Source: a virus. Taken from it: a DNA stretch of 55,965 bases. Position numbers and translations under genes: made by a program. The stretch is from the IMG/VR virus record IMGVR_UViG_3300027872_000003, positions 1 to 55,965 of that record; one strand, 5' to 3'. Shown here one piece after another: positions 13,898 to 15,702 of the stretch (position 1 is its first letter; each line of letters starts with the position of its first letter). Below the pieces are notes generated by a model. The model saw nothing but the letters and a program-made list of their open reading frames with translations, was not told the DNA's origin and ran no database searches.

Positions 13898-13909
13898 TTG
13901 GAGAGTGAT

Positions 13910-14236
13910 ATGAATGGAACAGAATTGAAGCCAGCCAGATTGATGTATAGCAATATTTCTGGTGTCGGTAAAGAGATCTACGCAATGATCGTGAGAGAGG
14001 TTAAGTGCGTCGAGTTTGATAAGTTGCCCGGCCCTCACATAATTATGCACCCAAGAGCCGAAGGTCCAATGCGGTCTGTTGTAGCCTATGAGCCTTGGAT
14101 TCAGTTCGAACCCAAAGAGTGGAGCGAAATGATAGAAGTCATGTTCCAGCAAATGGTGGATTTATGGAACGAGAAAAACGCTACCATTTCAGAAGATGAT
14201 GCGCTTGATTTCATTAAGCAGGTGAGAGGTTATTAA
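13910..14236 (+). CDS. hypothetical protein (108 aa)
   Basis: ATG at 13910 follows GGAGAG. It is the last gene before the ORF-free region. Confidence 0.5.
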   Translation: MNGTELKPARLMYSNISGVGKEIYAMIVREVKCVEFDKLPGPHIIMHPRAEGPMRSVVAYEPWIQFEPKEWSEMIEVMFQQMVDLWNEKNATISEDDALDFIKQVRGY

Positions 14237-14279
14237 TCAGCCCGCCGAAATAGAAAAGACTGGTTATAGCTAATCAGAC

Positions 14280-14307
14280 TTGACAAATTTTGCAGGAGGT
14301 ATAGAGT
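14280..14307 (+). promoter_or_regulatory. sigma70-like promoter inside the ORF-free region
   Basis: Consensus TTGACA (14280-14285), 16-nt spacer, TAGAGT (14302-14307). No ORF follows. Confidence 0.45.
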
Positions 14308-14359
14308 TCGGTTTGTAGGCGTGTTGGAACGTCTTTAGAAAAGTTTAAAGTTTGCAGAA

Positions 14360-14455
14360 GGGTTATTTAATATCAAGTTCAGAGGCTATGGGTTTACACC
14401 TGTGACACCTGAACTGCCTTTCCAAACTGGGCTTGATATCAAATAGCCCTTTTTT
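14360..14455 (+). terminator. very long imperfect hairpin plus T6 (terminator and/or body of a ~145-nt sRNA)
   Basis: 14360-14382 pairs with 14409-14413 and 14432-14449: 23 positions, one G-U, one A-C. TTTTTT follows at 14450-14455. Confidence 0.55.
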
Positions 14456-14718
14456 GTGTCTGACCTTTACCGGGTGCGGTAACTAAGACTTCATATAGTC
14501 TTACGTAGCAACTTGAAAGCAGTTATCCAGACACAAATCCTTTCTAAAGTCCTTCCTTATAGCCTGTTTAGATGATGGTATTGATAGAACCGAAATATGT
14601 GTATGGCGTGCATAGCAAAGCATTGAGGATCTACAGTGAGAACCGAAGGCCAAGGGGACACTGGTAAAAAGCATCGACACTGATCGTAGCGCTTAATATC
14701 ATCTTCTAAGCAAGTTAT

Positions 14719-14886
14719 AGAGTCTATATTGAAGTGGTGGTTCGATTCCACAGACTGTGTACGGTGGTAGAGTTCAATTCTCTACAGGCGAACGGGGTAG
14801 TGAAAACTTTAAATGGTGCCCAGCCGATTCCAAAGTTTGGAAAAAGTGGTTCAGCCGGAAGCAGTCACCACCTCAATATAGATTCT
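14719..14886 (+). ncRNA. module 1: 21-position closing helix enclosing two T-loop hairpins (tRNA-mimic / Y-RNA-like architecture)
   Basis: 14719-14739 pairs with 14866-14886. Inside are GTGG-TTCGATT-CCAC (14737-14751), GTAGAG-TTCAATT-CTCTAC (14767-14785) and helix 14804-14816/14830-14838. Confidence 0.5.
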
Positions 14887-14911
14887 CCTCTACCGAGTTA
14901 GTATTTGTGGT

Positions 14912-15010
14912 GTTGTTATCGTGGCTGAATGTAGAAGCCAGCATGATAGCCGGGAGCGCGCCCGAAGGCTGTCAAATGTGACGTAGGGAGGTCGAAATCC
15001 CATAGCAACC
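14912..15010 (+). ncRNA. module 2: non-canonical tRNA-shaped element (not a functional tRNA gene by eye)
   Basis: 7-bp acceptor-like helix GTTGTTA/TAGCAAC. D-like TGGC/GCCA stem. 11-bp arm at 14945-14973 with a 6-nt loop. T-like GGGA-GGTCGAAA-TCCC abuts the 3' acceptor strand. Confidence 0.4.
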
Positions 15011-15348
15011 CTTCAAATACTATCTCTCGGTTACATTCAATGCTCAGGCAGATACCGATGAAAACGCAGCCGAAAACGTATTTCTACCGCACTAGCCATA
15101 TACCGAAAGGTTACCGGCAAAGTTGGCTTCCCTCAGCGATAAGTTAATGGATAAGAAGGGTGTGGACTGTTCACTACAAGGGACAGGGCATAAACGGGTT
15201 AAATGACAATTGCCTTCGGGCAGGGCGACCTAGTAAGTCGATAAACTATACCCGATAAGTTTGATAATACGATTAGTAGATAAGGTAATAACACTAGGGT
15301 CAGATGATGTCCTTTTATGTCAACTATACGATTAAATAAGGTGATGAT

Positions 15349-15702
15349 ATGAATGCACAAGAAACAGAATTTAAAGCAATTGTAGTGGGGAAGAACTTAC
15401 ATACTGCTATCTCATGGCCTTCTTTTAACTATCTTAGAGCATGCCTGTATCCATCAATCAATGCTTGTTCTGATTCTGAGGAATGCAAGGCCACGCTGAC
15501 AGTTAAGATTGACGGAAAAATTACGGACATTTTAGAACAGAGGCAGCCTTTTAGCGCCGATAGTAAGGTTGATATTCTGCTGTCTAAATATATGTTTTTA
15601 TTGAATAACTATGACGAAGACGACTATCACGAATTACTCACAGAATATCCGGATGATGAAATACACAAAGTCACAATATCAATACGGATAGAGCTGAGCT
15701 AG
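15349..15702 (+). CDS. hypothetical acidic protein (117 aa)
   Basis: ORF with AAGGTG SD. First gene after the ORF-free region. Confidence 0.5.
   Translation: MNAQETEFKAIVVGKNLHTAISWPSFNYLRACLYPSINACSDSEECKATLTVKIDGKITDILEQRQPFSADSKVDILLSKYMFLLNNYDEDDYHELLTEYPDDEIHKVTISIRIELS

What the first reader, a model, noticed from the sequence alone, without database searches (positions are those of the whole stretch)
14719..14886. 168-nt module: 21-position closing helix around two T-loop hairpins, with three competing GGTGG copies
Seen: AGAGTCTATATTGAAGTGGTG (14719-14739) pairs with CACCACCTCAATATAGATTCT (14866-14886). That is 19 Watson-Crick pairs, one G-U and one A-C.

The enclosed 126 nt contain:
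- GTGG-TTCGATT-CCAC.
- GTAGAG-TTCAATT-CTCTAC, with canonical TTCNANT-type T-loops.
- A 7+2-bp helix at 14804-14816/14830-14838.

The 3' strand CACCACC can alternatively pair with GGTGG(T) at 14735-14740, 14763-14768 or 14846-14850. Mutually exclusive folds are therefore possible.

No 7-bp acceptor partner exists for either T-arm, so these are not tRNA genes.

Inference: this is a tRNA-mimicking RNA. Possible roles are a Y-RNA/YrlA-like scaffold, a decoy for tRNA-targeting defence nucleases, or a domain of the larger RNA.
Basis: partly seen in the sequence, partly recalled or inferred. Interest (0 to 1): 0.7.

Follow-up and report, generated by a model that had tools for sequence, protein, structure and literature searches.

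The report
Phage tRNA-mimic RNA with two T-arms
The 168-nt module is a real, conserved phage non-coding RNA that carries two tRNA-type T-arms inside a covarying multi-helix fold; it belongs to a small, apparently undescribed RNA family whose function is still unknown.

Summary
The 21-position inverted repeat (19 Watson-Crick pairs, one G-U, one A-C) is the only one of its kind in the 56-kb window and never appears in shuffles.

About 35 related copies exist: in uncultured phage contigs, in metagenomes and in two cultured Klebsiella phages (Kpn BU9, KP13-27). Together they define a fold:
- P1, an optional closing helix
- T-arm 1
- P2
- P3 (CGGU/GCCG)
- T-arm 2
- P4 and P5, a hairpin with an invariant GG loop
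- P6, a variable hairpin
- the conserved motif GGUUYA

In the core helices 97% of cells pair, and 111 cells carry changes on both sides. G-U outnumbers A-C by 70 to 1, which points to an RNA on the + strand.

ARAGORN and Rfam 15 find nothing at this site. It is not a tRNA, tmRNA, GOLLD, ROOL or T4 rnaC/rnaD. Its topology resembles the permuted tRNA-like domain of YrlA, but the window has no Rsr gene and the family lacks the Rsr-binding motif.

Copies fill tRNA-sized slots in phage tRNA arrays or stand alone, some followed by a U-tract. Neighbouring genes are not conserved.

Most likely it is a trans-acting tRNA mimic.

The parts
14719..14736 (+). P1, 5' strand of the closing helix.
   Evidence: Inverted repeat I4. 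Unique in the window. A helix of 11-22 bp with unrelated sequences is present in 17 of 29 family members, against 3% of non-cognate pairings.
14737..14751 (+). T-arm 1: stem GUGG/CCAC around the T-loop UUCGAUU (14741-14747).
   Evidence: The loop G-UUC-A-U-C is invariant in 28 of 28 sequences although it was not part of the pattern. Stem pairs change on both sides in 18-19 sequences.
14753..14758 (+). P2, 5' strand (GACUGU). It pairs with 14861-14866 and follows directly on the T-arm 1 3' strand, as the acceptor 3' strand does in tRNA.
   Evidence: A helix of at least 6 bp at this place in 27 of 29 members, all with different sequences, against 20% of non-cognate pairings.
14759..14761 (+). 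Internal loop GUA, opposite GAA at 14858-14860.
   Evidence: The GUAC...GGAA type recurs in the family alignment.
14762..14767 (+). CGGUGG. CGGU is the P3 5' strand and pairs with GCCG at 14854-14857, including a U-G pair. The following GG is unpaired.
   Evidence: RNAalifold and pair counts give 98% paired, with the U-G pair in 28 of 28. GGTGG was part of the search pattern, so its own invariance is partly by design. GCCG was not in the pattern.
14768..14784 (+). T-arm 2: stem UAGAG/CUCUA around the T-loop UUCAAUU (14773-14779).
   Evidence: Four of the five stem pairs carry changes on both sides; 97% of cells pair.
14787..14825 (+). P4 (GGC 14787-14789 with GCC 14823-14825) encloses the junction GAACG and hairpin P5 (GGGU 14795-14798 with GCCC 14818-14821). 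The P5 loop carries the invariant UGG (14814-16). In this copy it also holds an inserted mini-hairpin AGU-GAAA-ACU (14799-14808) followed by UUAAA.
   Evidence: P5 pairs covary: GC:16, CG:9, UA:2 at one pair and UG:16, AU:8, GC:2 at another. The loop GG is invariant and was outside the search pattern. The insert is present in 5 members with a covarying 3-bp stem (AGU/ACU, GGC/GCC, GAC/GUC, GGA/UCC).
14828..14842 (+). P6, a variable hairpin (UUCCAA/UUGGAA).
   Evidence: Unrelated hairpins, or none, sit at the same place in other members (L089, L109, L119, L125).
14848..14857 (+). The conserved motif GGUUCA, followed by GCCG, the P3 3' strand.
   Evidence: GGUUYAGCCG is conserved across the family and was not part of the first search pattern.
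14861..14866 (+). P2, 3' strand (GCAGUC).
14869..14886 (+). P1, 3' strand.
14237..15348 (+). The ORF-free, strongly structured stretch that holds the module. It lies between + strand early genes. Apart from the module it has no relatives in any sequence fetched.
   Evidence: ORF list. Fold z = -4.9 on the + strand and -4.2 on the - strand. nhmmer with the gap as query hits only gap positions ~350-710, essentially the module.

Best explanation
Window 14719-14886 (+ strand) encodes one copy of a conserved phage non-coding RNA with two tRNA-type T-arms.

The fold (shown). An optional closing helix P1 opens into T-arm 1. The 3' strand of T-arm 1 runs straight into helix P2, the way the acceptor stem follows the T-arm in tRNA. 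P2 is not open at its far end. A small GUA/GAA internal loop and a 4-bp helix P3 (CGGU/GCCG) lead into an inner domain. That domain holds T-arm 2, a P4/P5 hairpin with an invariant GG loop (D-loop-like), a variable hairpin P6 and the motif GGUUYA. The topology is that of a circularly permuted, nested tRNA mimic. It resembles the tRNA-like domain of bacterial Y RNA YrlA, which runs stem, T, closed acceptor-like stem, D, stem.

Mechanism (inferred). The RNA is made as a discrete stable molecule.
- In tRNA arrays it fills a tRNA slot and would be released by the enzymes that trim the neighbouring tRNAs.
- Copies without P1 often end in a U-tract after P2/P3.
- Copies closed by P1, like this one, sit inside longer transcripts, and the 18-21-bp P1 could be an RNase III site.

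The two T-loops probably dock on the conserved GG elements to form two tRNA-like elbows. They would be recognised by T-arm enzymes (TruB, TrmA), as shown for YrlA. The RNA would then act in trans by occupying or recruiting a host or phage factor that reads the tRNA T-arm or elbow.

Shown: family, fold and strand. Inferred: processing, modification and trans action. The partner is unknown.
For: Homologues:
- nhmmer with the window gap as query hits 22 loci, confined to gap positions ~350-710, essentially the module, with E down to 2.5e-13.
- A pattern scan gave ~31 true members in viral, genome and metagenome collections.
- Sequences outside the model's training set score 72-91 bits: Klebsiella phages BU9 and KP13-27, and L185 and L205, which were found with an independent 3' pattern.

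Structure:
- 21 core pairs are 97.3% paired, with 111 cells changed on both sides. No shuffle in 500 reached the observed values for cells paired, double-change cells or the covariation score. Versions with the 3' partner slid by 1-3 columns pair only 29-50%.
- P1 and P2 covary. Cognate partners beat non-cognate ones: P1 in 17 of 29 against 3%, P2 in 27 of 29 against 20%.
- The family fold costs -55.9 kcal/mol on the window sequence, against an MFE of -58.5.

Strand: 70 G-U cells against 1 A-C.

tRNA-like handling:
- The module lies within 4 nt after a tRNA in L100, L111 and L113. In L100 it abuts the next tRNA.
- It lies 47 nt upstream of a real phage tmRNA in L094.
- ARAGORN mis-reads it as tRNA-Ser in L043 and L100.

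Trans action rather than cis control:
- No homologous flanking genes among 31 loci.
- Several members without P1 have a U-run just after the P2 3' strand (read from the sequences).

Precedent: YrlA carries pseudouridine 55 made by TruB, and phages encode YrlA-like RNAs (PMC4201824).
Against: - There are no expression data for any member.
- No binding partner or co-occurring protein was found.
- The tertiary docking of T-loops on GG elements is a guess from sequence conservation.
- Part of the apparent invariance (GGTGG, T-loop 2, AGGC, GGG) was imposed by the search pattern. L185 has GGTTGG, and KP13-27 and L205 have TGGC.
- The family is small: about 10 contigs in IMG/VR, about 20 in JGI metagenomes and 2 cultured phages. 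Any function is therefore dispensable for most phages.
- The window copy has no nearby terminator, and promoter-like sites are no more frequent than in shuffles. Its own transcript ends are unknown.
Confidence: 0.5

Rival explanations
1. It is a cis-acting processing or stability element. A tRNA-like fold placed between genes of a polycistronic transcript would be cut by RNase P, RNase Z or RNase III. This would separate or stabilise the flanking mRNAs, like tRNA punctuation, and the excised RNA would have no role of its own.
For: The module is usually co-oriented with both neighbours and sits in short intergenic gaps of 15-90 nt. It is flush with tRNAs in arrays. P1 in the window is long enough for RNase III.
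Against: The elaborate core has invariant unpaired nucleotides: the UGG loop, GGUUYA and the AGGCGA junction. These are conserved from marine to enteric phages. That is far more than a cleavage signal needs. Several members without P1 end in a U-run, like independent small RNA genes (read). No neighbouring gene is conserved.
Confidence: 0.2
2. It is a Y-RNA/YrlA-type scaffold. The closing stem would bind a Ro60/Rsr-like ring protein, and the tRNA-like part would tether an exoribonuclease or another effector.
For: It shares YrlA's permuted order: stem, T-arm, closed acceptor-like stem, GG hairpin. Phages are known to carry YrlA-like RNAs (PMC4201824).
Against: No Rfam family matches even at E<=10. 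None of the eight window ORFs of at least 439 aa that were scanned has a TROVE domain. The GNCGAAN0-1G motif is absent from all 29 members. P1 is missing in 12 of 29 members. It has two T-arms rather than one. No neighbour is conserved.
Confidence: 0.1
3. It is a decoy or inhibitor for a tRNA-directed host defence or toxin, that is, a nuclease or modifier that recognises tRNA shape. This is a special case of the trans-acting mimic.
For: It presents two tRNA-like T-arms or elbows. It travels with phage tRNA arrays, which are themselves thought to counter tRNA-cleaving defences (my own knowledge). A coding-frame-less mini-tmRNA of mycobacteriophage DS6A inhibits host tmRNA, which is a precedent for tRNA-like inhibitors (PMC11915505).
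Against: It has no anticodon stem-loop, which is the target of most known tRNA-cleaving defence nucleases. It has no free acceptor end. No link to any defence system was tested or found.
Confidence: 0.12
4. It is a DNA-level element (attP core, replication origin) or decayed tRNA gene remnants, and not a functional RNA.
For: In two loci the module lies 18-32 nt downstream of ORFs that I read as integrases (L043, L119). They were not scanned against any family library. Phage attP sites often contain tRNA 3' fragments (my own knowledge). The window gap lies among recombination genes, with replication genes elsewhere in the genome.
Against: 70 G-U cells against 1 A-C show selection on one transcribed strand. 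Compensatory changes occur in seven helices. Only 2 true members turned up in one genome for each of 185,579 species, so it is not a common host integration target. Pseudogene remnants would not keep covarying helices and invariant loops.
Confidence: 0.03

Closest known systems
YrlA, a bacterial Y RNA with a tRNA-like domain (Chen et al. 2014, PMC4201824)
   Same: Both have a long stem formed by the 5' and 3' parts that closes a permuted tRNA-like domain. Both have a canonical T-arm (GGUUCRAnUCC) followed by a closed acceptor-like stem, and a GG-containing hairpin that could play the D-loop. Both also occur in phages.
   Different: This RNA has two T-arms, nested. It lacks the GNCGAAN0-1G motif. 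The window has no rsr gene. The closing stem is optional. The module occurs in tRNA arrays and many unrelated contexts. No covariance-model match was found.
Phage T4 stable RNAs rnaC and rnaD (species 1 and 2 RNAs) in the T4 tRNA cluster
   Same: These are small phage RNAs of unknown function that occupy slots in a tRNA array. rnaC ends in a tRNA-type T-arm.
   Different: They are not homologous. Model R1 gives only ~15 bits, from the T-arm alone. They have one T-arm and a different architecture.
tRNA, and the tRNA-like domain of tmRNA, including the coding-frame-less mini-tmRNA of mycobacteriophage DS6A
   Same: The T-arm sequence and its stacking on a following helix are shared. One member lies beside a real phage tmRNA (L094). 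The Klebsiella phage copies lie beside a tmRNA-like tag frame.
   Different: It has no open 7-bp acceptor end or CCA, no anticodon arm and no tag frame of its own. ARAGORN and Rfam call nothing at the window copy. A profile of the phage tag element does not hit the window gap.
GOLLD and ROOL, large ornate phage RNAs
   Same: All are phage-borne, of unknown function, and tied to tRNA islands. GOLLD can carry tRNAs in its linker (bioRxiv 10.1101/2024.12.08.627333). More distant double-T-arm variants lie next to ROOL (L077) and GOLLD (L039).
   Different: Neither covariance model matches. The module is ~110-170 nt, not 500-800 nt.
The interdigitated double T-loop motif (T-box Stem I apex, RNase P, L1 stalk; PMC3664808)
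   Same: Two T-loops lie in one compact RNA element.
   Different: Those are five-nucleotide T-loop motifs in a bulge and an end loop of a single helix. They bind a tRNA elbow. Here both are full tRNA-type T-arms (5-bp stem, 7-nt loop), which would themselves form elbows.

Membership tests
Double-T-arm phage RNA family defined here (model R1) | T-arm 1: a stem of about 5 bp around UUCRANU, closed by a G-C pair | tested here: met
   Window 14737-14751. The window stem has 4 bp (GUGG/CCAC); the fifth position, G14736-A14752, is a mismatch. The loop is invariant in 28 of 28 and the stem covaries.
Double-T-arm phage RNA family defined here (model R1) | T-arm 2, preceded by CGGUGG, whose CGGU pairs with a downstream GCCG (P3) | tested here: met
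   Window 14762-14784 and 14854-14857.
Double-T-arm phage RNA family defined here (model R1) | AGGC...GCC (P4) enclosing hairpin P5 with a UGG loop, then GGUUYA | tested here: met
   Window 14786-14825 and 14848-14853.
Double-T-arm phage RNA family defined here (model R1) | P2 helix between the strand after T-arm 1 and the strand after GCCG | tested here: met
   GACUGU/GCAGUC, 14753-58 with 14861-66.
Double-T-arm phage RNA family defined here (model R1) | Significant similarity to members that does not depend on the model's training set | tested here: met
   nhmmer with the window gap as query: 22 loci, E down to 2.5e-13. The R1 score of 85.8 bits is partly by construction, because the window sequence was in the seed alignment.
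tRNA | Cloverleaf with an open 7-bp acceptor stem, a D-arm and an anticodon arm | tested here: not met
   ARAGORN finds 0 genes in the window. The Rfam tRNA model does not match, even at E<=10.
YrlA / bacterial Y RNA | Encoded next to an rsr (Ro60, TROVE domain) gene | tested here: not met
   None of the eight window ORFs of at least 439 aa that were scanned has a TROVE domain. Flanking genes are NinB-like and HD-domain genes and ORFs of unknown function. The contigs of other members were not searched for rsr.
YrlA / bacterial Y RNA | A GNCGAAN0-1G motif near the 5' end (presumed Rsr contact) | tested here: not met
   0 of 29 members.
YrlA / bacterial Y RNA | One T and one D stem-loop separated by a closed acceptor-like stem, all closed by a long stem | tested here: inconclusive
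   The topology is comparable, but there are two T-arms, no clear D-stem in the outer layer, and P1 is optional.
tmRNA (standard or permuted) | A tRNA-like domain with an acceptor end, plus a tag reading frame | tested here: not met
   ARAGORN and Rfam find nothing in the window. A tag-element profile does not hit the gap.
GOLLD / ROOL | A match to Rfam RF02032 or RF03087 | tested here: not met
   No match in the window at gathering threshold or at E<=10. The same scan does detect both families in other loci.
T4 rnaC / rnaD | Homology to the T4 stable RNAs | tested here: not met
   R1 run on the T4 tRNA region without filters gives at most 16 bits, from T-arms only.
Interdigitated double T-loop motif | Two five-nucleotide T-loops, one in a bulge and one in the end loop of the same helix, interlocked | not testable with these tools
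   This needs a 3D structure. The secondary-structure layout here differs: two separate 5-bp hairpins with 7-nt loops.

The most novel reading that the evidence does not exclude
This would be a new class of phage-encoded RNA: a nested mimic with two tRNA-like elbows. It would belong to a wider set of multi-T-arm RNAs, including three-T-arm forms and variants beside ROOL and GOLLD, that ride in phage tRNA islands. It would work by capturing a host factor that reads the tRNA T-arm or elbow. Candidates are tRNA-processing or tRNA-modifying enzymes, the ribosome, or a tRNA-directed defence. Two cultured Klebsiella phages offer a direct experimental system.
Probability: 0.35. Interest if true: 0.8.

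Novelty: new variant of a known kind. Interest (0 to 1): 0.62.

Why it matters
Phage tRNA islands carry several RNAs whose roles have stayed unknown for decades, such as T4 rnaC/rnaD, GOLLD and ROOL. This family adds a compact case of about 110-170 nt with a well-supported fold and an obvious biochemical handle: two canonical T-arms. It occurs in two cultured Klebsiella phages, where deletion, modification mapping and pull-downs are feasible. If it sequesters or recruits a tRNA-reading factor, that would be a new way for phages to manipulate the host tRNA machinery. It also shows that gene finders either leave such elements unannotated or mis-call them: spurious small ORFs in phage BU9, and a 'tRNA-Ser' from ARAGORN in two contigs.

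Tried and rejected
- Rfam: gathering threshold on the whole window, and E<=10 on 13900-15600. No match.
- BLAST of the gap against cultured phages and E. coli genomes: no match.
- Exact 51-nt pattern in IMG/VR: 0 hits.
- Synteny route through flanking proteins. The 117-aa and 166-aa neighbours have no relatives in IMG/VR. The HD-domain neighbour gave 36 loci, none with the module. The closest of them (L002) has no gap.
- T4 rnaC/rnaD as homologues: rejected.
- A link to tmRNA:
  - A tmRNA-like tag frame lies next to the module in KP13-27, and a real tmRNA lies next to it in L094.
  - A profile of that tag element does not hit the window gap.
  - Other phages with the tag element lack the module.
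  - The weak likeness of window 15066-15095 to a tag frame is therefore set aside.
- A second, independent search pattern (GCCCAGCC...GGTTYAGCCG) returned mostly chance hits in GC-rich coding DNA. Only 5 true members were among them.
- The minimum-free-energy fold of the isolated 168 nt does not form T-arm 1 or P3-P5. It was not used as the model, because the family covariation supports another fold of nearly equal energy.

Full report
**Setting.**
The window is a complete, circularly permuted phage genome of ~55.9 kb. It is the same sequence as Logan contig SRR8436516_14307. Its head, portal, baseplate and tail genes lie on the minus strand. Its early genes lie on the plus strand: exonuclease, NinB-like protein, HD-domain hydrolase and ThyX. 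It is far from any cultured phage, with capsid identity of 47% at most.
The finding lies in a 1.1 kb stretch without credible ORFs, 14237-15348, between plus-strand genes. This stretch folds much better than shuffled sequence: z = -4.9 on the plus strand and -4.2 on the minus strand.

**Check of the observation.**
- The arms 14719-14739 and 14866-14886 pair as described: 19 Watson-Crick pairs, one G-U and one A-C.
- An exhaustive count found this to be the only inverted repeat in the window with 21-nt arms, at least 19 Watson-Crick pairs and a loop of up to 200 nt. None occurred in 15 shuffles.
- Both T-loop hairpins are present.
- ARAGORN finds no tRNA or tmRNA in the window.
- Rfam 15 finds nothing, either at gathering scores or at E<=10.

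**Finding relatives.**
BLAST against cultured phages and E. coli genomes found nothing, and neither did synteny searches through neighbouring proteins.
A pattern requiring two T-loops 14-34 nt apart returned 53 IMG/VR loci. Three of them (L043, L057, L089) aligned to the module with compensatory changes.
A pattern taken from the shared blocks (GGTGG-N4-GTTCRANTC-N5-AGGCNANNGGG) was then run against three collections:
- 8 viral loci;
- 6 genome loci, of which 2 are true members;
- 25 metagenome loci, of which ~20 are true members.
The hits were sorted into true members and chance matches by inspection.
A BLAST search with one member found the module in two cultured Klebsiella phages, Kpn BU9 and KP13-27. 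There it lies in an otherwise unannotated 1.08 kb gap inside the head-gene cluster; BU9 annotates small reverse-strand ORFs across it.
With the window gap as an nhmmer query, 22 loci match, confined to gap positions ~350-710, that is, essentially to the module. E-values go down to 2.5e-13.

**The fold.**
The alignment of 28 sequences (A2), RNAalifold and explicit pair counting support five core helices.

| Helix | Pairs | Evidence |
|---|---|---|
| T-arm 1 | 5 | 4 pairs with changes on both sides |
| P3 (CGGU/GCCG) | 4 | conserved; U-G pair in 28 of 28 |
| T-arm 2 | 5 | 4 pairs with changes on both sides |
| P4 (GGC/GCC) | 3 | conserved |
| P5 | 4 | 2 pairs with changes on both sides |

Overall 97.3% of cells pair and 111 cells carry double changes. 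No shuffle in 500 reached the observed values for cells paired, double-change cells or the covariation score. When the 3' partners are slid by 1-3 columns, only 29-50% of cells pair.
Two further helices vary too much for MAFFT to align, so they were tested sequence by sequence against non-cognate partners:
- P2 lies between the strand after T-arm 1 and the strand after GCCG. It has at least 6 bp in 27 of 29 sequences, against 20% of non-cognate pairings.
Its sequences are unrelated from one member to the next.
P1 is nevertheless optional.
Other conserved or variable features:
- The P5 loop carries an invariant UGG.
- Five members, the window among them, insert a covarying 3-bp hairpin plus UUAAAU into the P5 loop. 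Four of these hairpins have a GAAA tetraloop.
- A variable hairpin, P6, follows P4.
- The motif GGUUYA precedes the P3 3' strand.
The family fold on the window sequence has -55.9 kcal/mol, close to the MFE of -58.5.
G-U pairs outnumber A-C mismatches by 70 to 1, so the selected molecule is an RNA read from the plus strand of the window.
Model R1, built from A2, gives 72-83 bits for the Klebsiella phages. It gives 82-91 bits for L185 and L205, two loci found with an independent pattern that holds no T-arm. Those two also have both T-arms. They show that GGTGG and AGGC are not strictly invariant.
Caveat: the invariance of GGTGG, T-loop 2, AGGC and GGG in A2 is partly imposed by the search pattern. 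The following were not in the pattern: T-arm 1, the UGG loop, CAGCC, and GGUUYAGCCG.

- The '7+2-bp helix' joins bases that in the family belong to the optional P5-loop insert and to P6. It is not conserved.
- Each of the three GGTGG copies falls in a conserved element. The first is the top of P1 and the T-arm 1 stem. The second is the P3 5' strand, which pairs with GCCG, plus the following GG. The third is GGUUYA.
- The P1 3' strand begins with CCAC in many members, so local branch migration at the P1/T-arm 1/P2 junction is possible in several sequences (gap5 of -1 to -3). I found no family-wide support for a switch.

**Topology.**
The 3' strand of T-arm 1 continues into P2 after a single unpaired base, as the T-stem continues into the acceptor stem in tRNA. 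P2 is 6-7 bp in most members with the GUAC/GGAA junction.
The far end of P2 is closed by the inner domain. The RNA ends, or P1, emerge where the D and anticodon arms emerge in tRNA. This is the permuted order described for YrlA: stem, V, T, closed acceptor-like stem, D, stem (PMC4201824). The inner domain repeats it: P3, GG, T-arm 2, P4/P5 hairpin, P6/GGUUYA, P3.
I therefore read the module as a nested, double tRNA-like mimic. This reading is an inference from secondary structure. No 3D test was possible.

**Genomic contexts.**
- In L100 the module fills the space between tRNA-Met and tRNA-Leu exactly. In L111 and L113 it starts 4 nt after a tRNA.
- In L094 it lies 47 nt upstream of a bona fide phage tmRNA and a tRNA-Met.
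- In L043 and L119 it follows an ORF that looks like an integrase.
- Elsewhere it lies in short gaps between co-oriented ORFs that share no homology across loci.
- Several members without P1 have a run of U just after the P2 3' strand (sequences).
- Only in the window and the Klebsiella phages does it sit in a ~1.1 kb non-coding stretch. Those stretches share nothing but the module.
The module is therefore an autonomous unit that behaves like a tRNA-sized gene. Absence of a conserved neighbour argues against a riboswitch or leader.

**Comparison with known families.**
- It is not a tRNA, tmRNA, GOLLD or ROOL.
- It is not related to T4 rnaC/rnaD. Those share only the idea of a T-arm-bearing stable RNA in a tRNA cluster.
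- The closest functional analogue is YrlA, but three defining features fail: no TROVE gene among the eight window ORFs of at least 439 aa that were scanned, no GNCGAAN0-1G motif, and no model match.
- Literature searches for RNAs with two T-arms or two T-loops found only the unrelated interdigitated T-loop motif.
- I could not check whether the family is among the 10,006 unnamed candidates of PMC10690425.

**Mechanism and confidence.**
That this is a conserved, structured, plus-strand RNA of a family not in Rfam 15 is close to certain (~0.9).
How it works is inferred. I favour a discrete, stable, trans-acting tRNA mimic. Its two T-arms would be handled by tRNA enzymes and would engage a factor that reads the T-arm or elbow.
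The rivals are a cis processing or punctuation element, a Y-RNA-type scaffold, a decoy against tRNA-directed defence, and a DNA-level element. Strand asymmetry and covariation effectively exclude the last.

**Verdict.**
This is a new variant of a known kind (tRNA-mimicking non-coding RNAs). Interest is moderate to high, because the fold is well supported, the function is open, and cultured phages carry it.

Noticed in passing
L128 (Klebsiella phage KP13-27, OP617744) 2295-2470; L130 1501-1625; L131; L132; L133; L135: An unannotated element of ~125-175 nt encodes a tmRNA-like tag frame. The tags are ANEEMYLAVA* (KP13-27), ANDNVFLAVA* (Felixounavirus fjerdesal), ANDNTFLAVA* (Kuttervirus PhiSH19) and ANDDVVLMAA* (Sf11), and the changes are conservative at codon level. 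The element matches 828 cultured-phage records. In fjerdesal it sits in the tRNA array between tRNA-Ile and tRNA-Arg. ARAGORN (on KP13-27/BU9) and Rfam (on KP13-27) do not call it. A profile built from it hits the real permuted tmRNA in L067.
   Followed up: partly
L038 ~480-620 (also L045, L074, L090): An RNA-like element with three tRNA-type T-arms in a row, closed by a GGATCAG/CTGATCC helix. It is a weak partial match to model R1 (35.5 bits).
   Followed up: no
L077 899-1014; L039 260-358: More distant double-T-arm elements lie ~120 nt upstream of a ROOL RNA (L077) and downstream of GOLLD plus a tRNA (L039 and its relatives). The L077 copy keeps an AGGCG..GAGUGC-GGU-GCA..GUCC block that resembles P4/P5.
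   Followed up: partly
L094 12037-12584 (minus strand): A family member lies 47 nt upstream of a bona fide phage-encoded tmRNA (Rfam 61.6 bits; tag ...VEELVAA*), which is followed by tRNA-Met.
   Followed up: partly
L043 3725-3808 and L100 3064-3154: ARAGORN reports a 'tRNA-Ser (cga)' that spans T-arm 1 to T-arm 2 of the module. In L100 it overlaps a real tRNA-Met. This is most likely a false call caused by the two T-arms.
   Followed up: no
window 14358-14457: A 25-nt-arm hairpin (14358-14382 with 14427-14451, 84% complementary) is followed directly by TTTTTT. It looks like a terminator and lies downstream of a TTGACA-16-TAGAGT promoter-like site at 14280-14307. The first ~140 nt of the gap may be a separate small RNA.
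   Followed up: no
window 14895-14919 / 15002-15026 and 14960-14969 / 15212-15221: Further long-range complementary segments lie just downstream of the module: 25 nt at 80% complementarity, and 10 nt perfect (GCCCGAAGGC/GCCTTCGGGC). The rest of the gap has no relatives in any locus fetched.
   Followed up: partly
window 15066-15095: GCAGCCGAAAACGTATTTCTACCGCACTAG (AAENVFLPH*) weakly resembles the phage tmRNA-like tag frames. The tag-element profile does not support it.
   Followed up: yes
L127 (Klebsiella phage Kpn BU9, OR145793) 1915-2936: Four small reverse-strand 'hypothetical protein' CDSs are annotated across the non-coding stretch that holds the module and the tag element. The near-identical KP13-27 record annotates none. 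The CDSs are probably spurious.
   Followed up: no
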